Assembly (NCBI GenBank): GCA_015488735.1
Contig: WFNG01000055.1
Coordinates: forward strand, 6,185 to 70,184
Source: Bacteroidales bacterium
Lineage (GTDB): Bacteria > Bacteroidota > Bacteroidia > Bacteroidales > F082
DNA: 64,000 nucleotides
Reading direction: 5' to 3'
Of the stretch, positions 4,835-64,000 are shown piece after piece. Both the position numbers and the translations under genes were made by a program. Under the pieces are notes generated by a model. The model was not told the origin of the DNA, ran no database searches, and saw only the letters and a list, made by a program, of their open reading frames with translations. Within the stretch, counting starts at the first letter, position 1. Every line of letters starts with the position of its first letter.

Positions 4835-4955
4835 GGCATATTGGAAAAAGATTATATATTTTAAAAACAGTGCAAATGTATTGTATCGTTTTTGCCTGCC
4901 ATCCACTTAATGTAAAGTTATTGTTAAATTTATTGACTTTTGAACTTATGTTCAT

Positions 4956-4963
4956 TATCTTTG
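4956..4963 (+). promoter_or_regulatory. -7 promoter box (TATCTTTG)
   Basis: TAnnTTTG match 24 nt before ATG 4988. Confidence 0.6.
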
Positions 4964-4987: not shown

Positions 4988-5206
4988 ATGAGTACTTCTG
5001 GAAACAATGATGCACCCGGCAGGGGGCTAGGATACGGTGGAGGCCATGGCAGAAACCGAGGTGGTAGTTTTGGTGTTGGCGGATATTGCGTTTGCGCCAA
5101 ATGTGGAACTAAAATCCCTCATCAACAAGGGGTTAAATGTACTACGCTGAAATGTCCGAAATGCGGCCATACTATGATTCGCGAAGAGTTGCTTAAGAAA
5201 TCCTGA
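4988..5206 (+). CDS. Small Gly-rich, six-Cys metal-binding (zinc-ribbon-like) protein
   Basis: GGYCVCAKCG..PHQQGVKC...KCPKCG; has its own promoter box; AT-rich start context. Confidence 0.75.
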   Translation: MSTSGNNDAPGRGLGYGGGHGRNRGGSFGVGGYCVCAKCGTKIPHQQGVKCTTLKCPKCGHTMIREELLKKS

Positions 5207-5278
5207 TAAAGGAATGTTTTTCCTTTTCTTTTTGCTGAAGCGGAAGACATGATACCTCTTTATGTTTATGAGATTAAT

Positions 5279-5286
5279 TATCTTTG
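5279..5286 (+). promoter_or_regulatory. -7 promoter box (TATCTTTG)
   Basis: TAnnTTTG upstream of the VOC-DUF89 operon. Confidence 0.55.
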
Positions 5287-5332
5287 TCAGCCGGCATCCC
5301 TATGGGATAGCCGGCTTTAAAAAAATGCATCT

Positions 5333-5713
5333 ATGACCCTGAATCATATCGGAATAAACATTGCCGACACGCACGAAATACAGTATTTTTATGAGGATAT
5401 TCTGGAATTCGTTCCGGAAAATAATTTTCCTGTTCCTCTTGAAATTTCACAACAATTTTTTGGAATTGATAACAAAACGGATGCTCATATTGTTCAATCT
5501 GAAGATTTGTTGCTGGAGCTGTTTGTATATGACAAGCCGTTAAACACGGGATATGCGCATTTGTGTTTGGAGGTGAAAAATAGAGAAAAAATTGCCCGGA
5601 AATGTATCGAAAATGGCTATCCTGTTATGCGTAAGGAAAGAGAAAAGGGAGATTTGCTGTTTGTTAAAGACAAAGCCGGCAATGTGTTTGAACTAAAAAA
5701 TAAAAGGATATGA
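5333..5713 (+). CDS. VOC/glyoxalase-family protein
   Basis: LNHIGINI ... FYEDIL ... LELF ... HLCLEV ... FVKDKAGNVFEL, with His/Glu metal ligands. Confidence 0.85.
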   Translation: MTLNHIGINIADTHEIQYFYEDILEFVPENNFPVPLEISQQFFGIDNKTDAHIVQSEDLLLELFVYDKPLNTGYAHLCLEVKNREKIARKCIENGYPVMRKEREKGDLLFVKDKAGNVFELKNKRI

Positions 5714-6555
5714 AAACCTATCTGGATTGCCTGCCTTGCTTTGTGGAACAAGCGCTGCGTGCGGCACGAATTGCTACCAACGATGACAAAGTGATTAAGC
5801 AGGTACTCGATGAAGTTGGTTGCATGATTAAAGATACGCCCATGGAGAACACACCTGCTGAATCAGGAATCCGGGTTTATGGGAAGATACGGGAGATTAC
5901 CGGTGTGGCAGATCCTTACCGGGAAATAAAACAACGCCACATTGCCGAAGCCAGGGCGCTGTATCCCGAATTGGAGAAAATGGTTGCAAAAGCAAAAGAC
6001 CCGTTACTAACGGCTATTCGTATTGCTATTGCAGGAAATGTAATTGATCTTGGTATCAACAAAACTTTTAATCTGGTAGCTGATATAAAAGAAATTCTTA
6101 TAAAAGATTTTGCTGTTTTTGATTACGAAGCTTTTAAAAAAGCATTGTATAATGCTGAAAAGGTGTTGTATATAGGTGATAATGCAGGGGAATCAGTTTT
6201 TGATAAGTTGCTTATAAAACAGTTGAATAAGCCTGTAAAATTTGCTGTCCGCTCACAGCCAATCATCAATGACGCAACTATGGAAGATGCGCTTGCATCA
6301 GGATTGGATGAAGTAGCTGAATTAATTGACTCAGGCAGTAAGGCACCAGGAACTATTTTACGACATAGTACTCCGGAATTTATGGAAGTTTACCAGAAGG
6401 CAGACCTTGTGATCAGCAAAGGACAGGGAAATTATGAAGGTTTGTCGGATGAAGATCGCCCCATATTCTTTCTGCTAAAGGCCAAATGCCCGGTAATTGC
6501 ACGGGATATGGGGGTACAGGAAGGAGATATTGTCTTAAAAGGTATAAATTTGTAA
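5710..6555 (+). CDS. DUF89/ARMT1-like damage-control phosphatase
   Basis: N-terminal CLPC, IAGNVID, YIGDNAGE and SKGQGNYE motifs; ATGA overlap with the VOC gene. Confidence 0.9.
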   Translation: MKTYLDCLPCFVEQALRAARIATNDDKVIKQVLDEVGCMIKDTPMENTPAESGIRVYGKIREITGVADPYREIKQRHIAEARALYPELEKMVAKAKDPLLTAIRIAIAGNVIDLGINKTFNLVADIKEILIKDFAVFDYEAFKKALYNAEKVLYIGDNAGESVFDKLLIKQLNKPVKFAVRSQPIINDATMEDALASGLDEVAELIDSGSKAPGTILRHSTPEFMEVYQKADLVISKGQGNYEGLSDEDRPIFFLLKAKCPVIARDMGVQEGDIVLKGINL

Positions 6556-6654
6556 AATCTTCAGAGAGATACTTTTAGACTGTAAAAATATTCTGTCGTG
6601 TGACGGATAAAAAATAATACATTGGTTGATAATTAAATACAAAATTATTAAGAG

Positions 6655-7098
6655 ATGAAAACAAAAATAGGAATTATCATTTGCGATCGTTATCGGAATT
6701 GTGCCGGCGGAAAATGTTTTCGCTCCCTGCAGAATCGCGAAGGTGCTTTCAGTATTTATCCCAAAGAAGATGAAGTGGAAATTGTGGGTTACACAAGTTG
6801 TGGCGGCTGCCCCGGCGGAAACATCGAATATGCACCCGAAGAGATGAAAAAAAATGGGGCAACCGTCATCCATTTTGCCACAGGGTTCGTGGTGGGCTAT
6901 CCGCCCTGTCCGTATATCGACCATTTTAAACGTTTCATAGAAGAAAAATATACTATGAAAGTGGTCGTGGGGACGCATCCCATTCCCGAAAAATATTACC
7001 AGACGCACAAGGCACTAAAAACCTGGAATACCCCTCAATGGCAGGAAATTATCAAGCCAACACTGACCGACGAGAAAACACGGATTGAATATAATTAA
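6655..7098 (+). CDS. CGGC-domain protein (putative Fe-S/metal-binding)
   Basis: IGIIIC....CAGGKC, SCGGCPG, PPCP, VVVGTH. Confidence 0.9.
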   Translation: MKTKIGIIICDRYRNCAGGKCFRSLQNREGAFSIYPKEDEVEIVGYTSCGGCPGGNIEYAPEEMKKNGATVIHFATGFVVGYPPCPYIDHFKRFIEEKYTMKVVVGTHPIPEKYYQTHKALKTWNTPQWQEIIKPTLTDEKTRIEYN

Positions 7099-7333
7099 AT
7101 GTGTTTTATACACTTATTAGCAGCTTTAAACTGACATAGTAACCATGAAAAATAACCATTCATCTTAATAATTTTTCAGGAACTAAAAAAACTATTTATC
7201 CACAGATATTTGCCAGATACAAACTCAATACATAAACATATAAGAAGTTGGCCAAAATGTAAAGAAAAAACAGAAGTCTTATCATTAATAGTTTAATATG
7301 TAAAGATGTTTTGGTTTTCTTGTCAATTGAACG

Positions 7334-7341
7334 TATCTTTG
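7334..7341 (+). promoter_or_regulatory. -7 promoter box for the Fic gene
   Basis: TATCTTTG 38 nt before ATG 7380. Confidence 0.55.
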
Positions 7342-7379
7342 CAAAGAAAATCAAATAATCTATACATAAAAGGTGTAAG

Positions 7380-8441
7380 ATGTTAAAGAAATTACCAATA
7401 GAAAAAGACATTGAAACAAAAAAGGTTCTTAAAAAACTTGCTTCTACACATAGGGCATTAGCCGAATTAAAAGGAATTGTAGCGACAATTCCCAATGAGA
7501 ATATGTTAATTAACACTTTGGGGATTCAAGAAGCAAAAGACAGTTCAGCAGTCGAAAATATCATTACAACCCATGATGATATTTATAAAGCAGAATTAAA
7601 TCTTGGTAATATTAAATCATTAAATGCAAAAGAAGTCCAAAATTATATTTCTGCCCTAAAGAAAGGATTTACTTTAATATCGAAAAACAAGATCCTTACA
7701 AACAATGATATAATTGCAATACAATCTGAATTAGAAAAGAACAATGCGGGTTTTAGAAAACTTCCGGGAACTGCTTTGAAGAATGCAACAACAGGAGAAA
7801 CGGTATACGCACCGCCACAAGAATATTCTGAAATTTTAGATCTGATGTCAAATCTGGAACAATTTATCAATGATGAAACTCTGTCAGATTTTGACCCGTT
7901 AGTAAAAATGGCTATAATTCATTACCAGTTTGAAAGTATTCACCCATTTTACGATGGAAACGGGCGAACAGGGAGGATTATTAATGTATTGTATTTGGTT
8001 ATGCAAGATTTATTAAATCTTCCAATACTATATTTAAGTCGGTATATAATTTTGAATAAAGGAATGTATTATAAGTTATTACAGGAAGTTAGAGAAACCG
8101 ATAATTGGGAGAACTGGCTGTTATACATGCTTGATGCTGTTGAACAAATTTCGAAAGAAACAATAGTATTGATAGCGAAAATACGAGAATTAATCTTTGA
8201 ATATAAAAATATTCTTCGCAGTAACTATAAATTTTACAGCCAGGATTTATTAAATAACCTGTTTAAACACCCTTACACAAAAATTGAATTTATTGAAAGA
8301 GATTTGGGCGTTTCCAGAATAACAGCGGCAAAATATTTAAATGAATTAGCAAAAAGCGGATTACTGAAGAAACAAAAATTCGGGACAGGAAATTATTATA
8401 TAAATGAAAAATTAATGAACTTATTAACGATGAAGGAATAA
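7380..8441 (+). CDS. Fic-family protein with C-terminal winged-helix domain
   Basis: Intact catalytic motif HPFYDGNGRTGR, N-terminal EAKDSSAVENI, C-terminal SRITAAKYLNEL HTH; visibly AT-rich. Confidence 0.92.
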   Translation: MLKKLPIEKDIETKKVLKKLASTHRALAELKGIVATIPNENMLINTLGIQEAKDSSAVENIITTHDDIYKAELNLGNIKSLNAKEVQNYISALKKGFTLISKNKILTNNDIIAIQSELEKNNAGFRKLPGTALKNATTGETVYAPPQEYSEILDLMSNLEQFINDETLSDFDPLVKMAIIHYQFESIHPFYDGNGRTGRIINVLYLVMQDLLNLPILYLSRYIILNKGMYYKLLQEVRETDNWENWLLYMLDAVEQISKETIVLIAKIRELIFEYKNILRSNYKFYSQDLLNNLFKHPYTKIEFIERDLGVSRITAAKYLNELAKSGLLKKQKFGTGNYYINEKLMNLLTMKE

Positions 8442-8450
8442 CACTTTGGC

Positions 8451-8578
8451 TGACAACGGCTCATAGTGCATGCCGCAAATAATTGTAAATATGACGATTA
8501 AGCATTAAAGGAAAATACCGGTTAATAGAAAAATAAAACATTAAACTGCGGCATGCACCATAGCCGCACACGTTAGAA
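8451..8578 (+). repeat. Imperfect inverted repeat with attC-like architecture
   Basis: AAC at 8455-57; arm cggctcatagtgcatgccgca 8457-8477; arm tgcggcatgcaccatagccg 8547-8566; GTTAGAA at 8572-78; 12-bp perfect core and one extrahelical base. Confidence 0.55.
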
Positions 8579-8588
8579 AATTGTAATT

Positions 8589-9524
8589 ATGTATAAATAT
8601 CTTTTTGGCCCGGTGCCTTCGCGCAGGCTGGGCATGTCGCTCGGCGTTGATTTGGTGCCGCATAAAGTTTGTTCGCTCAATTGTGTTTATTGCGAGTGTG
8701 GACGAACCACAAATTTAACCGTTGAGCGAAAAGAATACATCCCGTATGACGAGGTAGTCAGCGAAATTGACCACTATCTTAAGCATAATCCCAATCCTGA
8801 TTATTTTACCTTTTCCGGTTCCGGCGAACCGACTTTGAACAGCCGCATTGGCGATGTGCTTCATTTTATCAAATCCAACAGCAAAGTGCCGGTTGCTGTT
8901 CTCACCAACGGAACATTGTTTTACGATAAGGCTGTCCGGGATGAGCTTCTCGAAGCCGATGTGGTTTTGCCTTCGCTGGATGCTGCTGAAGAGCTGGCTT
9001 TTCGCAAAATAAACCGCCCGTGGCATAAATTGAACATCTCTGAATACATCAGGGGGCTTGTTGATTTCAGAAATGAATATAATGGCCAAATCTGGCTGGA
9101 AGTGCTCATTATTCCCGGTATGAACGATAATCAGGAAAACCTGAATGCTTTGAAAGACGCTTTTTTGAAAATTCATCCGGATGAAATACAGCTGAACACA
9201 TTGGATCGTCCCGGTGCGATAGAAAATATCAGGGCTGCCACGCGTAAGGAGTTACAGGATATTGTGGACTTCTGGGACTTGCCGCAGGTGAAAATCATCG
9301 CGGCAGCACCGGATCGTAAAAAAATTGTTTCCTACCGTGATGATACGGAATCGGCCATATTGGAAACCATCAAACGCCGTCCCTGTACGCTGGAAGATCT
9401 CCATAAAATTCTGGGACTCCACATTAACGAAATCAATAAATATCTTGATGTGCTTGAAGACGAGAAAAAAATTCTTTCCGTAAGGGAAAAGAGGGGCGTG
9501 TTTTATAAGATTAATTCATTGTGA
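8589..9524 (+). CDS. Radical SAM protein (COG0731-like), paralogue 1
   Basis: FGPVPSRRLG.SLG, CSLNCVYC (CxxxCxxC), TFSGSGEPTL, LTNG. Confidence 0.92.
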   Translation: MYKYLFGPVPSRRLGMSLGVDLVPHKVCSLNCVYCECGRTTNLTVERKEYIPYDEVVSEIDHYLKHNPNPDYFTFSGSGEPTLNSRIGDVLHFIKSNSKVPVAVLTNGTLFYDKAVRDELLEADVVLPSLDAAEELAFRKINRPWHKLNISEYIRGLVDFRNEYNGQIWLEVLIIPGMNDNQENLNALKDAFLKIHPDEIQLNTLDRPGAIENIRAATRKELQDIVDFWDLPQVKIIAAAPDRKKIVSYRDDTESAILETIKRRPCTLEDLHKILGLHINEINKYLDVLEDEKKILSVREKRGVFYKINSL

Positions 9525-9637
9525 TTGCAGGCTTTTATTAACATGAGTTAATTAGAAAGCCAGTGAAAAGAAAAACAAAATAATTCGGGATAAATAATAA
9601 ATTTGCCTTTTAAAAGTTTTCTATAATACAAAATGAA

Positions 9638-62402: not shown

Positions 62403-62756
62403 ATGAAAGTATTATTAGCAACAGAAGGAAATACGCTGAACAGTAAAATTGCCAAAAGATTTGGAGAAGCTCCTTATTATTTAATTTACAATAGTGATAC
62501 CAAAGAAACAGAAGCCAGAGTGAATCCAGGTCATGACGATAACCATTCCGGATTAATTGATCTGGTTAATGAAGGAGTTTTGTATTATATTGTGGGAAAT
62601 ACGGGACCAAATGCATTTGATGTTTTAAACAACAGAAATGCAGAACTTTATCTGGCAAGAGGAACTGTTGCCAAAGATGCTCTGGATGCTTTTCTGAATA
62701 AAAAATTGGAAAGATTAACAAAAGCCACACTTAAAAGACCCATTCGTAACCATTAA
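62403..62756 (+). CDS. NifB/NifX-family (FeMo-cofactor-binding-like) protein
   Basis: MKVLLATEG, RFGEAPYYLIY, G..G.NA...L. Confidence 0.85.
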   Translation: MKVLLATEGNTLNSKIAKRFGEAPYYLIYNSDTKETEARVNPGHDDNHSGLIDLVNEGVLYYIVGNTGPNAFDVLNNRNAELYLARGTVAKDALDAFLNKKLERLTKATLKRPIRNH

Positions 62757-62768
62757 AAATAAAGAACT

Positions 62769-63707
62769 ATGTATAAATATATTTTTGGCCCGGTACCTTC
62801 GCGACGTCTTGGCATGTCACTCGGAGTAGACTTAGTTCCTAAAAAAGTTTGTTCACTTGATTGTGTATATTGTGAAGTAGGTCAAACCACAAAGTTAACA
62901 ACTGAAAGAAGGGAATATATTCCGTATGATAAGGTTATAGCCGAATTGGAAGATTATTTTGTAAACAATCCCAATCCGGATTATATTACATTTTCCGGAT
63001 CAGGTGAACCTACGCTTAACATAAGGATTGGTGAAGTTTTGCAATTTGTCAAGCAAAAGAAGCCCGATATTCCTGTGGCTGTTTTAACCAACGGAACGTT
63101 ATTGTATGATGAAAATGTCCGGAAGGAATTGCTGGATGCTCATGTTGTCCTTCCTTCGCTTGATGCAGCAACCGAGAGTACTTTTCAAAAGATAAACCGC
63201 CCCGCACAAGGGCTTACTGCCGATAAATATATTCAGGGACTCATTGATTTTAGAAAAGATTATGCAGGACAAATATGGCTCGAAGTATTTATTATTCCCG
63301 GATATAATGACAATGCCAAAGATTTAAATGCATTAAAAGAAGCATTTGGAAAGATACAGCCGGATCAAGTTCAGCTAAATACACTCGATCGGCCCGGTAC
63401 GGTGAAAGGCATTAGTCCGGCCAGCCATGAAAGCTTGCAGAAAATTATTGATTTTTGGGGACTTCCAAATGTGGAAATAATTGCAGCAGCACCGGAAAGA
63501 AAAGAATTAAAATCGTACAGGAAAGATGCGGAAACGGCCATATTGGGAACAATAACAAGAAGACCCTGTACCGTTGACGACCTTGTGAAAATTCTCGGGT
63601 TACATATTAATGAGATTAACAAATATCTTGATGTATTGGAAGGGGAAGGTAAAATCCAGTCAGTGTGGCAGGACAGGGGCGTGTTTTATCAGATAAATAA
63701 CAAGTAA
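62769..63707 (+). CDS. Radical SAM protein (COG0731-like), paralogue 2
   Basis: FGPVPSRRLG.SLG, CSLDCVYC, TFSGSGEPTL; colinear with 8589-9524. Confidence 0.92.
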   Translation: MYKYIFGPVPSRRLGMSLGVDLVPKKVCSLDCVYCEVGQTTKLTTERREYIPYDKVIAELEDYFVNNPNPDYITFSGSGEPTLNIRIGEVLQFVKQKKPDIPVAVLTNGTLLYDENVRKELLDAHVVLPSLDAATESTFQKINRPAQGLTADKYIQGLIDFRKDYAGQIWLEVFIIPGYNDNAKDLNALKEAFGKIQPDQVQLNTLDRPGTVKGISPASHESLQKIIDFWGLPNVEIIAAAPERKELKSYRKDAETAILGTITRRPCTVDDLVKILGLHINEINKYLDVLEGEGKIQSVWQDRGVFYQINNK

Positions 63708-63829: not shown

Positions 63830-64000
63830 ATGAAAAAAACAGGACTAATAGTAAATCCAATTGCCGGAATGGGAGGAAGTGTAGGTTTAAAAGGTACTGA
63901 TGGGAAAACCTATAATAAGGCTCTTGAATTAGGCGCAAAACCCACTACGCCCAAAAGTATAGATGATACCCTTGCTTTAATTACAAGGAAAGATCTCTAT
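63830..64000 (+). CDS. ATP-NAD/AcoX kinase-family protein, N-terminal part (truncated by the window end)
   Basis: Manual translation [25 protein letters not shown]..., the [16 protein letters not shown] signature of COG3199-type proteins. Confidence 0.8.

What the first reader, a model, noticed from the sequence alone, without database searches (positions are those of the whole stretch)
4988..9524. Uncharacterised metal/Fe-S module, fragment 1 (mini Cys protein, VOC, DUF89, CGGC, radical SAM)
Seen: five co-oriented genes, four with Cys metal motifs (6-Cys mini-protein, DUF89 CLPC, CGGC with about 6 Cys, radical SAM CxxxCxxC), plus a metal-dependent VOC enzyme. Established: DUF89/ARMT1 proteins are metal-dependent damage-control phosphatases; CGGC (PF08821) and this COG0731 radical SAM clade have no assigned bacterial function. 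Inference: together with the NifX-like gene beside the second radical SAM copy, these genes look like parts of one anaerobic cofactor-maturation or metabolite-repair pathway. From memory such neighbourhoods occur in anaerobic bacteria and archaea; I have not verified this.
Basis: partly seen in the sequence, partly recalled or inferred. Interest (0 to 1): 0.62.

Follow-up and report, generated by a model that had tools for sequence, protein, structure and literature searches.

The report
Accessory genes of orange-protein metal-sulfur cluster
These genes are a real, scattered piece of a gene set for handling metal-sulfur compounds that many oxygen-avoiding microbes share (the "orange protein" system, whose job is still unknown), here split by a recently inserted Fic gene.

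Summary
A sixth co-oriented gene, Fic (7380-8441), lies between CGGC and the radical SAM gene. It is an insertion: close relatives have a 26-45 bp CGGC/radical-SAM spacer.

The refutation test fails. In 80 loci holding this radical SAM clade (65-88% identical across at least 8 phyla), 30 of 73 have a module gene immediately upstream (CGGC 13, DUF89 5, VOC 4). NifX-like is immediately downstream in 8 of 75. In about ten genomes everything sits in one co-oriented supercluster: DUF134, DUF5320, mini-protein, two MinD-ferredoxin ATPases, NifX-like genes, MBL, DUF89, CGGC, radical SAM. That is the ORP (orange protein) gene set of Desulfovibrio, extended. Radical-SAM/NifX fusions exist in both domain orders.

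In this genome the set is dispersed. The mini gene, the ORP-core operon (contig C90) and a DUF134-mini fusion gene (C185) share a palindrome, TGAAC-N4-GTTCA, at their promoters. No such site precedes VOC-DUF89, CGGC or either radical SAM gene.

No known radical SAM subfamily or solved structure matches, so the chemistry is unknown. My working guess is a NifB-like division of labour: CGGC as scaffold, radical SAM as modifier, NifX-fold as carrier. Verdict: a conserved but unsolved variant of a known kind, of moderate interest.

The parts
4941..4954 (.). Palindromic operator-like site TGAACTTATGTTCA, directly before the -7 box of the mini gene
   Evidence: There are 5 exact TGAAC-N4-GTTCA sites in the 2.88 Mb genome (3.3 expected; 0 for the reversed control). 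Three lie 41-63 bp before module genes: mini, the C90 DUF5320/ORP-core operon and the C185 DUF134-mini fusion. The same site lies before mini in L001 and L007 and before DUF134 in L020 and L071.
4956..4963 (+). Bacteroidetes-type -7 promoter box TATCTTTG for the mini gene
   Evidence: Motif scan. This is a consensus match only.
4988..5206 (+). 72-aa mini-protein: cationic Gly-rich DUF5320-like head plus a Cys6-His ribbon (candidate Orp5 equivalent)
   Evidence: no Pfam family, at least 526 homologues, C34 C36 C39 H45 C51 C56 C59 invariant. The same domain is fused to DUF134 regulators in the window's own genome (C185) and in L017 and L020. It sits directly before the two ATPase genes in L075 and L020.
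5279..5317 (+). -7 box TATCTTTG followed by the hairpin/palindrome GCCGGCATCCCTATGGGATAGCCGGC in the VOC leader
   Evidence: Function not resolved. The half-site GATAGCCGG is not specific in the genome.
5333..5713 (+). VOC (glyoxalase-fold) protein, 126 aa, with the H5/E62/H76/E120 metal tetrad conserved
   Evidence: Found beside the radical SAM clade in 9-10 loci, mostly Bacteroidales/Lentimicrobiaceae.
5710..6555 (+). DUF89/ARMT1-like metal-dependent phosphatase, 281 aa, overlapping the VOC stop by 4 bp
   Evidence: PF01937 at E 6e-74. NCBIfam damage-control phosphatase models score 201 bits, below the 440 cut-off. D157, N158 and D188 are conserved. Present in 15-16 of the radical SAM loci.
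6655..7098 (+). CGGC-domain protein, 147 aa, with five invariant Cys and three invariant His
   Evidence: PF08821 at E 2e-29. Orthologues are 70-88% identical across phyla. It is the immediate upstream neighbour of the radical SAM gene in 13 of 73 loci. The AF2 model is an alpha/beta fold with no PDB relative.
7099..8588 (+). Inserted segment of about 1.45-1.49 kb carrying a Fic/SoFic-like gene (7380-8441), its own TATCTTTG box (7334) and a 3' inverted repeat (about 8459-8565)
   Evidence: Relatives L001 and L007 have only 26-45 bp between CGGC and the radical SAM gene. The ancestral spacer, up to an ATG, is still visible at 7099-7147. Fic domains. The 6-8 kb bin has the lowest G+C in this part of the window, 0.35.
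8589..9524 (+). Radical SAM enzyme rSAM1, 311 aa: minimal radical SAM core plus a C-terminal ArsR/TrmB-like winged helix; no auxiliary-cluster Cys
   Evidence: Invariant residues: G7 P8 S11 R12 R13 S17 L18 G19 C28 C32 C35 G77 E80 P81 N107 R207. AF2 pLDDT is 94.5. The nearest folds are PFL-AE, TYW1, viperin and NifB at TM about 0.55 and 14-18% identity. There is no PDB sequence hit.
62403..62756 (+). NifX-like (PF02579) protein, 117 aa, 12 bp before rSAM2 ('fragment 2')
   Evidence: NifX-like genes lie immediately after the radical SAM gene in 8 of 75 loci and are fused to it in P0142 and L046.
62769..63707 (+). Radical SAM paralogue rSAM2, 312 aa, 69% identical to rSAM1
   Evidence: It falls in a separate, well supported clade that also includes CGGC-adjacent genes of Desulfuromusa, Chlamydiota and Bacteroidaceae.

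Best explanation
The stretch is a detached accessory sub-cluster of an ORP (orange protein)-type metal-sulfur handling system of anaerobes.

Shown:
- The mini-protein, DUF89, CGGC and the radical-SAM/winged-helix enzyme recur, in many phyla, in one co-oriented supercluster. VOC joins them only in some lineages. That supercluster holds DUF134, DUF5320, two MinD-type ATPases with ferredoxin inserts (the Orp3/Orp4 architecture) and several NifX-fold proteins (the Orp8/IssA fold).
- In this genome the set is scattered over at least four loci.
- The mini gene shares a promoter-overlapping palindrome with the ORP-core operon and with the DUF134 regulator gene.
- CGGC and the radical SAM gene were adjacent until a Fic segment inserted between them.

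Inferred mechanism:
- The DUF134 protein binds TGAAC-N4-GTTCA and controls the core plus mini.
- The mini-protein holds a metal or Fe-S centre on its Cys6-His ribbon, by analogy with the [2Fe-2S] reported for the small Cys-rich ORP-operon protein Dde_3197, to which Orp5 is homologous.
- Its cationic Gly-rich head contacts an anionic metal-sulfide species, as proposed for the IssA tail.
- CGGC is the Cys-rich scaffold for a metal-sulfur species.
- The radical SAM enzyme has no auxiliary-cluster ligands of its own. It would do SAM-dependent radical chemistry on what CGGC or a NifX-fold protein presents. The NifX-fold protein would carry the product. This is a NifB-like division of labour spread over separate polypeptides.
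- VOC and DUF89 are a translationally coupled, lineage-specific pair that would process or detoxify a phosphorylated small-molecule by-product or ligand.
For: 1. Neighbourhood. Among 80 genome loci of the radical SAM clade, a module family is the immediate upstream gene in 30 of 73 (CGGC 13, DUF89 5, VOC 4). NifX-like is the immediate downstream gene in 8 of 75. At least one module family is present in 48 of 80 loci and at least three in 23 of 80.

2. Superclusters. Complete versions occur in L020, L021, L031, L034, L044, L056, L063, L074 and L075. These are labelled Bacteroidales, Neomarinimicrobiota, Chlorobiota, Prolixibacteraceae and Spirochaetales. Families were confirmed by Pfam.

3. Fusions. 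L046 reads Radical_SAM-wHTH-NifX in one 428-aa ORF. P0142 reads NifX-Radical_SAM-wHTH, and P0214 reads Radical_SAM-wHTH-methyltransferase.

4. Co-occurrence. In a 201-genome phylum sample, all 8 CGGC genomes have the radical SAM family, against a 53/201 base rate. Of 50 radical-SAM genomes with no CGGC in the fetched locus, 25 encode a 57-82% identical CGGC elsewhere.

5. Own genome. C90 carries DUF5320, two CbiA/ParA+Fer4 ATPases, NifX, two methyltransferases and a class-V aminotransferase. C185 carries a DUF134-zinc-ribbon-mini fusion, NifX and a Cys/Met PLP enzyme.

6. Operator. Three of the genome's five TGAAC-N4-GTTCA sites sit at the promoters of mini, the C90 operon and the C185 DUF134 gene. 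The site is conserved in relatives.

7. Ancestral adjacency of CGGC and the radical SAM gene.

8. Literature. The ORP complex is Orp3/4 (ATPases with 2x[4Fe-4S] motifs), Orp5 (homologous to a [2Fe-2S]-binding protein), Orp8 (Mo-Cu sulfide cluster protein) and Orp9 (PMC6345978). IssA stores thioferrate on a NifX-fold domain plus a cationic Gly-rich tail (PMC5524996).
Against:
- Here the genes have separate promoter boxes, and only mini carries the operator.
- About a third of radical-SAM genomes show no CGGC, although these are incomplete MAGs.
- One radical SAM subclade (L055, L061-L079) sits in a different context: flavodoxin-like and unknown genes.
- VOC is restricted mostly to Bacteroidales.
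- The radical SAM fold search is generic. PFL-AE, TYW1, viperin and NifB all score alike, so no chemistry can be read from it.
- CGGC cluster binding is inferred only from conserved Cys and His.
- Mini was not compared directly with DVU2105 or Dde_3197.
Confidence: 0.6

Rival explanations
1. VOC-DUF89 (and perhaps the radical SAM enzyme) form a small-molecule damage-control or ligand-biosynthesis route. This route merely travels with the ORP genes because both serve strictly anaerobic, sulfidic life. The metal proteins and the enzymes do not act on a common substrate.
For: DUF89 proteins are metal-dependent phosphatases acting on phospho-metabolites (PMC9062747 abstract; Pfam and NCBIfam names). 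VOC and DUF89 overlap by 4 bp and have their own promoter box. The invariant SRR motif of the radical SAM enzyme could bind a phosphate. Methyltransferases, a PLP enzyme, MBL, and MFS, ZIP and ArsP_2 transporters recur in the superclusters.
Against: CGGC/radical-SAM adjacency and radical-SAM/NifX fusions tie at least the radical SAM enzyme to the metal-binding proteins. The genes after rSAM2 that looked like a pathway include a bona fide class I fructose-bisphosphate aldolase, 644 bits against a 327 cut-off, so they are probably housekeeping.
Confidence: 0.2
2. The gene order is only loosely conserved. The genes are independent anaerobe housekeeping functions with no shared pathway.
For: Separate promoters in this window and no operator before four of the five genes. 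32 of 80 loci show no module gene near the radical SAM gene. The radical SAM tree does not follow phylum boundaries, which indicates much horizontal transfer of whole blocks.
Against: A single-copy 147-aa gene being the immediate neighbour in 13 of 73 loci from several phyla is far above the roughly 1 in 3000 expected (the expectation is my estimate). Domain fusions exist. All 8 CGGC genomes in the phylum sample carry the radical SAM family.
Confidence: 0.12
3. The radical SAM enzyme is a nucleic-acid enzyme, a TYW1/COG0731-like tRNA or DNA modifier that uses its winged-helix tail to bind RNA or DNA. It is unrelated to metal-cluster chemistry.
For: JGI names several homologues 'wyosine synthetase'. 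TYW1 and RlmN are among the fold hits. The tail matches ArsR/TrmB/DprA-type winged helices weakly. Very high conservation across phyla is typical of translation-related enzymes.
Against: TIGR03972 (TYW1) scores 29.7 bits against a cut-off of 318. No second set of conserved Cys exists for TYW1's auxiliary cluster. Wyosine is not a bacterial modification (established knowledge). The gene context is metalloprotein genes, not translation genes.
Confidence: 0.08
4. The mini-protein is a ribosomal peptide substrate (RiPP-like) that the radical SAM enzyme recognises through its winged-helix tail and modifies.
For: A small Cys-rich peptide and a radical SAM enzyme lie in one neighbourhood. RiPP recognition elements are winged-helix-like (established knowledge).
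Against: The Cys domain of mini is 80-90% identical across phyla and occurs as a domain of DUF134 regulators, unlike RiPP cores. The radical SAM enzyme has no SPASM or auxiliary clusters. No protease or dedicated exporter was noted beside the pair. Mini and the radical SAM gene are usually many genes apart.
Confidence: 0.04

Closest known systems
ORP (orange protein) complex and orp operons of Desulfovibrio vulgaris Hildenborough (Orp3, Orp4, Orp5, Orp8, Orp9/MrpORP, OrpR; PMC6345978, PMC8359166)
   Same: Specific to anaerobes. It has two MinD-type ATPases with ferredoxin motifs, NifX-fold proteins and a small Cys-rich protein just before the ATPase genes. The genome of this window has the ATPase pair, NifX and DUF5320 on C90. 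The window's genes sit next to such cores in other genomes.
   Different: The described orp operons contain no radical SAM, CGGC, DUF89, VOC or MBL genes. They are driven by sigma-54 with OrpR. Here the core, mini and a DUF134 gene share a TGAAC-N4-GTTCA palindrome and the set is dispersed. An Mrp-NifX fusion (Orp9) was not looked for. Homology of mini to Orp5 is positional only.
NifB (radical SAM domain plus C-terminal NifX domain; NifB-co synthase)
   Same: A radical SAM enzyme functionally joined to a NifX-fold domain. L046 has the same domain order in one polypeptide. NifB structures are among the fold hits.
   Different: There are no conserved Cys or His ligands for K-clusters. Identity is 15-17%. 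There are no nitrogenase genes in the context. An extra winged helix is present. No NifB model was among the NCBIfam hits.
IssA of Pyrococcus furiosus (thioferrate storage; PMC5524996)
   Same: A NifX-fold (IPR003731) protein family. The cationic, Gly/aromatic-rich disordered segment proposed to wrap anionic metal-sulfide chains resembles the head of mini, which has 13 Gly, 4 Arg/His and 3 aromatic residues in 33, and DUF5320.
   Different: In IssA the tail is fused to the NifX fold. Here the Gly-rich head is on a separate Cys6-His ribbon protein. No thioferrate evidence exists here.
DUF89/ARMT1 damage-control phosphatases
   Same: Full-length PF01937 match with the conserved Asp/Asn metal site.
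   Different: It scores below the NCBIfam equivalog cut-offs: 201 against 440 and 172 against 500 bits. The substrate is unknown. It has a partly conserved N-terminal CxxC (C10 at least 90%, C7 less) and an ORP-type gene context.

Membership tests
ORP (orange protein) complex gene cluster | Pair of MinD-type P-loop ATPases with inserted 2x[4Fe-4S] ferredoxin motifs (Orp3/Orp4) | tested here: met
   Not in the window. Present in the same genome on C90: two adjacent ORFs with CbiA/ParA plus Fer4 domains. Adjacent to the window's gene families in 12 of 80 related loci.
ORP (orange protein) complex gene cluster | NifX-fold (PF02579/IPR003731) small protein (Orp8, the orange protein) | tested here: met
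   Window 62403-62756, E 2.7e-11. Further copies on C90, C185, C35 and C55 at about 73.9 kb.
ORP (orange protein) complex gene cluster | Small Cys-rich Fe-S protein encoded before the ATPase genes (Orp5; Dde_3197 binds [2Fe-2S]) | tested here: inconclusive
   Mini (Cys6-His) occupies that position in L075 and L020. No sequence of DVU2105 or Dde_3197 was available for a direct comparison.
ORP (orange protein) complex gene cluster | Sigma-54 promoter with the OrpR enhancer-binding protein | tested here: inconclusive
   None in the window. A -24/-12-like TGGCAT-N5-TTGAA lies before the C90 operon, but the relaxed pattern has 24 genome hits against about 11 expected. OrpR was not searched for. A DUF134-linked palindrome is present instead.
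TYW1 (4-demethylwyosine synthase, COG0731) | Scores above the TIGR03972 cut-off; second [4Fe-4S] cluster with three further conserved Cys | tested here: not met
   29.7 bits against a cut-off of 317.95. Only C28, C32 and C35 are invariant in 83 sequences.
NifB | Radical SAM core with additional Cys/His ligands for the two K-clusters | tested here: not met
   No conserved Cys or His beyond CxxxCxxC. Structural similarity is only at superfamily level, TM about 0.52.
NifB | Association with a NifX-fold domain | tested here: met
   NifX lies 12 bp upstream of rSAM2. Fusions occur in L046 and P0142.
Glycyl-radical activases (PFL-AE) and tungsten-cofactor radical SAM maturase (TIGR04317) | Score above the family cut-offs | tested here: not met
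   TIGR02493 scores 47.5 against 231.75. TIGR04317 scores 48.8 against 380.
DUF89/ARMT1 damage-control phosphatase | Full-length PF01937 domain with conserved Asp-Asn...Asp metal site | tested here: met
   249 bits against a cut-off of 25. D157, N158 and D188 are at least 95% conserved in 17 sequences. The assignment of these residues to the metal site is from memory of the family.
DUF89/ARMT1 damage-control phosphatase | Phosphatase activity on a defined damaged metabolite | not testable with these tools
   Needs an enzyme assay.
CGGC domain family (PF08821) | Pfam match over the cut-off with the CGGC motif | tested here: met
   102.6 bits against 27. C49-G-G-C52 is present. Among 14 control genomes the family also occurs in Thermotoga maritima, Methanocaldococcus jannaschii and Methanosarcina acetivorans.

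The most novel reading that the evidence does not exclude
CGGC, the radical-SAM/winged-helix enzyme and a NifX-fold protein together form a split, NifB-like synthase. CGGC supplies the cluster ligands that the radical SAM protein lacks. The enzyme uses SAM to remodel the bound Fe-S (or Mo/W-S) species. The NifX-fold protein carries away a complex, non-nitrogenase metallocluster that the ORP ATPases then deliver. The system would be widespread in anaerobic bacteria and archaea and controlled by DUF134 through TGAAC-N4-GTTCA.
Probability: 0.12. Interest if true: 0.85.

Novelty: new variant of a known kind. Interest (0 to 1): 0.45.

Why it matters
The cellular role of the ORP system has been open since the orange protein was isolated. 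The system is confined to anaerobes, is redox-controlled, and binds unusual metal-sulfide species.

An uncharacterised radical SAM enzyme, 65-88% identical across at least eight phyla and sometimes fused to a NifX fold, travels with this system together with an equally conserved Cys-rich CGGC protein. That gives concrete, expressible candidates for the missing chemistry.

The shared palindrome gives a testable regulator-operator pair (DUF134). It also gives a way to define the regulon in genomes such as this one, where the genes are scattered. If the enzyme remodels metal clusters, it would be a second NifB-like activity outside nitrogen fixation.

Tried and rejected
- The VOC-leader palindrome as a shared operator: its half-site GATAGCCGG has 38 genome hits against about 22 expected, with no link to module genes. 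Rejected.
- Degenerate operator copies before VOC, CGGC, rSAM1 or NifX-rSAM2: up to 2 mismatches gives 21 window hits against 34 expected. Only 9538-9551 (TTAACATGAGTTAA, before the TonB receptor gene) is intergenic near the cluster. No support.
- Reading the chemistry from structure: the radical SAM model is confident but matches only generic cores. The CGGC model (pLDDT 76) has no significant PDB match. There is no PDB sequence hit.
- A small-molecule operon after rSAM2 (NAD-kinase-like, HisC-like aminotransferase, DeoC-family aldolase, PSD-like, NifX): the aldolase is a class I fructose-bisphosphate aldolase above its cut-off. Only the kinase-like and aminotransferase genes are conserved beside rSAM2 in relatives. 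Not pursued as a pathway.
- Phylum-level phylogenetic profile: dominated by one family carrying a distant (38-48% identical) radical SAM subfamily. Informative only for CGGC.
- Literature: searches for COG numbers, for CGGC/DUF89/DUF5320/DUF134 together, and for orange protein with radical SAM found no paper describing this association. Fievet 2011 (PMC3133258) is not held.

Full report
**What is in the stretch**

Window 4988-9524 holds six co-oriented ORFs on the + strand.
- A 72-aa mini-protein (4988-5206).
- A VOC/glyoxalase-fold protein (5333-5713).
- A DUF89/ARMT1-like phosphatase (5710-6555), whose start overlaps the VOC stop by 4 bp.
- A CGGC-domain protein (6655-7098).
- A Fic/SoFic-like protein (7380-8441), which this finding does not mention.
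- A radical SAM enzyme with a winged-helix tail (8589-9524).

The flanks are Bacteroidota-style outer-membrane genes: a porin on the - strand and TonB-dependent receptors. The nearest relatives are Lentimicrobiaceae MAGs. The best hit to the mini-protein is from Candidatus Sulfidibacterium hydrothermale.

A 69% identical radical SAM paralogue (62769-63707) follows a NifX-like gene (62403-62756) by 12 bp.

The Cys motifs hold up.
- Mini: C-x-C-x2-C-x5-H-x5-C-x4-C-x2-C, invariant in 29 homologues.
- CGGC: five invariant Cys plus three invariant His.
- Radical SAM: CxxxCxxC, with no other conserved Cys.
- VOC: the H/E/H/E tetrad. DUF89: the Asp-Asn...Asp site.

**The Fic gene is an insertion**

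In L001 (radical SAM 86% identical) the order is mini, VOC, DUF89, CGGC, radical SAM, TonB receptor. Only 26 bp separate CGGC from the radical SAM gene. L007 is alike.

In the window the ancestral spacer, up to an ATG, survives at 7099-7147. About 1.45 kb of AT-rich DNA follows. It carries its own Bacteroidetes -7 box (TATCTTTG at 7334), the Fic ORF and a long inverted repeat (about 8459-8565). The radical SAM ORF then resumes at 8589.

No promoter box lies between Fic and the radical SAM gene. If rSAM1 is expressed, it probably depends on read-through. All family-invariant residues are intact in it.

**The refutation test**

I fetched 80 loci from one-genome-per-species contigs that encode this radical SAM clade. 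They are 65-88% identical to rSAM1. Their record labels include Bacteroidota, Aminicenantes, Thermodesulfobacteriota, Myxococcota, Spirochaetota, Chlorobiota, Ignavibacteriota, Verrucomicrobiota, Chlamydiota, Deferribacterota, Fidelibacterota, Bacillota and one Promethearchaeota MAG.

Results:
- A module family is the immediate upstream gene in 30 of 73 loci: CGGC 13, DUF89 5, VOC 4.
- NifX-like is the immediate downstream gene in 8 of 75.
- 48 of 80 loci hold at least one module family, and 23 of 80 hold at least three.

For single-copy genes the chance of such adjacency is about one in a few thousand per genome (my estimate).

Of 50 radical-SAM genomes with no CGGC in the fetched locus, 25 encode a 57-82% identical CGGC elsewhere. 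In a 201-genome sample of the phylum, all 8 CGGC genomes carry the radical SAM family, against a 53/201 base rate.

The criterion for refutation is therefore not met.

**What the larger unit is**

Clustering all neighbouring ORFs showed what else recurs:
- DUF134.
- DUF5320.
- Two MinD/ParA ATPases with ferredoxin inserts.
- Two kinds of NifX-like protein.
- An MBL-fold protein.
- Two SAM methyltransferases.
- TrmO-like, DUF59-like and OsmC proteins.
- ZIP, ArsP_2 and MFS transporters.

In L020, L021, L031, L034, L044, L056, L063, L074 and L075 these form one co-oriented string that ends in DUF89, CGGC and radical SAM. In L075 it ends in NifX and radical SAM.

The ATPase pair, the NifX fold and the small Cys protein are the architecture of the ORP complex of Desulfovibrio: Orp3, Orp4, Orp5, Orp8 and Orp9. 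That complex is anaerobe-specific, redox-controlled and of unknown cellular role (PMC6345978, PMC8359166). The published orp operons contain no radical SAM, CGGC, DUF89 or VOC gene.

**Fusions**

- L046 reads Radical_SAM, winged helix and NifX in one 428-aa ORF, the NifB domain order.
- P0142 has NifX at the N-terminus instead. P0214 adds a methyltransferase.
- The Cys domain of mini occurs as the C-terminal domain of DUF134 proteins in this genome (C185, 211 aa) and in L017 and L020.
- In L017 the Gly-rich linker before that domain scores as the DUF5320 N-terminus.
- In L075 mini starts with the DUF5320-type MPRGDGTGP head and sits directly before the two ATPase genes.

**The set in this genome, and a shared operator**

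The genome (2.88 Mb, 262 contigs) has the remaining parts elsewhere.
- C90: DUF5320, two ferredoxin-ATPases, NifX, a Ppnp-like protein, a TPR protein, two methyltransferases and a class-V aminotransferase.
- C185: the DUF134-ribbon-mini fusion, NifX and a Cys/Met-metabolism PLP enzyme.
- Further NifX-like genes on C35 and just beyond the window's end.

I followed a lead from earlier notes that DUF134 has a palindromic operator. TGAAC-N4-GTTCA occurs five times in the genome (3.3 expected; the reversed control gives 0). Three sites lie 41-63 bp before the start codons of mini (window 4941-4954), the C90 operon and the C185 DUF134 gene. In each case the site abuts a TAnnTTTG box. The other two sites appear to lie inside coding sequence.

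The same site precedes mini in L001 and L007 and precedes DUF134 in L020 and L071.

No copy, even with two mismatches, precedes VOC, CGGC, rSAM1 or NifX-rSAM2.

So mini belongs to the DUF134/ORP regulon by sequence evidence. The four enzyme-type genes are tied to the system only by comparative gene order.

**The radical SAM enzyme**

The family is large: 1092 clusters at 50% identity with E no greater than 1e-30.

Invariant residues are an N-terminal GPxxSRRxxxSLG hairpin, CxxxCxxC, GxxEP, N107 and R207. An RRP motif opening the winged helix is nearly invariant.

It has no auxiliary-cluster ligands. It scores far below every NCBIfam subfamily cut-off: TYW1 29.7 against 318, PFL-AE 47.5 against 232, W-cofactor maturase 48.8 against 380. 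It has no PDB sequence relative.

The AF2 model (pLDDT 94.5) is a compact partial barrel plus a winged helix. PFL-AE, TYW1, viperin and NifB all align at TM about 0.55 and 14-18% identity. The fold therefore says only 'small radical SAM core'.

The tree mixes phyla and splits rSAM1 and rSAM2 into separate supported clades. Both clades contain CGGC-adjacent members, so the CGGC link is probably older than the duplication.

**Mechanism**

The identity as an ORP-type accessory fragment is well supported. The chemistry is inference.
- By analogy with NifB, and given the NifX fusions, I propose that the radical SAM enzyme acts on a metal-sulfur species. That species would be held by a partner, because the enzyme has no spare ligands. 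CGGC is the obvious scaffold and a NifX-fold protein the carrier.
- The mini-protein's Cys6-His ribbon may hold an Fe-S or Zn centre. Dde_3197, the small Cys-rich ORP-operon protein to which Orp5 is homologous, binds [2Fe-2S] (cited in PMC6345978).
- Its cationic Gly-rich head resembles the IssA tail proposed to wrap anionic thioferrate (PMC5524996).
- VOC-DUF89 looks like a lineage-specific, translationally coupled pair acting on a phosphorylated small molecule.

Rivals, in order of weight:
1. An independent small-molecule route.
2. Loose co-localisation with no shared pathway.
3. A nucleic-acid substrate for the radical SAM enzyme.
4. A RiPP-like role for mini.

**Verdict**

It is a dispersed, DUF134-controlled, enzyme-extended variant of the ORP cluster. 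Interest is moderate. The kind is known and was seen repeatedly in this scan, but the radical SAM, CGGC and NifX trio and the operator are concrete handles on an unsolved system.

Noticed in passing
window 7099-8588: AT-rich insertion carrying a Fic/SoFic-like adenylyltransferase gene (NF046030: 367 bits, below the 550 cut-off), its own promoter box, and a 3' inverted repeat with arms of about 19 bp separated by about 69 nt. It sits exactly at the old CGGC/radical-SAM junction. A 42% identical Fic paralogue lies on contig C173.
   Followed up: partly
genome contig C185:55454-56089 (locus L085:2455-3090): A 211-aa protein fusing DUF134 (putative DNA-binding domain), a zinc ribbon, a Gly/Arg linker and the mini-type Cys6 domain. 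It is preceded by the TGAAC-N4-GTTCA palindrome, which suggests an autoregulated, metal- or Fe-S-sensing regulator.
   Followed up: partly
genome contig C90, about 11695 (- strand), upstream of the DUF5320/ATPase operon: A sigma-54-like -24/-12 element, TGGCATAAATTTTGAA, lies about 30 bp before the palindrome. The relaxed pattern has 24 genome hits against about 11 expected, so a single hit is only suggestive. The Desulfovibrio orp operons are sigma-54 dependent.
   Followed up: partly
window 63830-64000 and beyond (locus L087:515-4680): After rSAM2 come an ATP-NAD-kinase-like gene, a HisC-like aminotransferase, a class I fructose-bisphosphate aldolase, a PSD-like gene and another NifX-like gene. 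The kinase-like gene is conserved beside rSAM2 orthologues in L037 and L045; the aminotransferase is conserved in L045 only.
   Followed up: partly
window 5289-5317: A perfect GC-rich hairpin/palindrome (GCCGGCATCCC TAT GGGATAGCCGGC) starts 2 nt after the VOC -7 box. It could be the mini terminator, an attenuator or another operator. Its half-site is not enriched in the genome.
   Followed up: partly
loci L002/L016 (Aminicenantes), about 8001-8942: There the radical SAM orthologue sits beside a xanthine-dehydrogenase-family molybdoenzyme with XdhC and MocA-like genes. This is a possible hint of a molybdenum link, seen in one lineage only.
   Followed up: no
loci L055, L061, L062, L065, L068, L069, L072, L079: A distinct radical SAM subclade, flanked in most of these loci by a flavodoxin-like protein, a 125-aa protein and a 262-aa Cys-containing protein with no Pfam match (L069 shows only the 262-aa gene, L061 none), and lacking ORP genes nearby.
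   Followed up: no
window 9538-9551: A symmetric variant palindrome, TTAACATGAGTTAA, lies in the intergenic region between rSAM1 and the TonB-dependent receptor gene, about 47 bp before a TAAATTTG box. It has two mismatches to the operator and may be chance.
   Followed up: no
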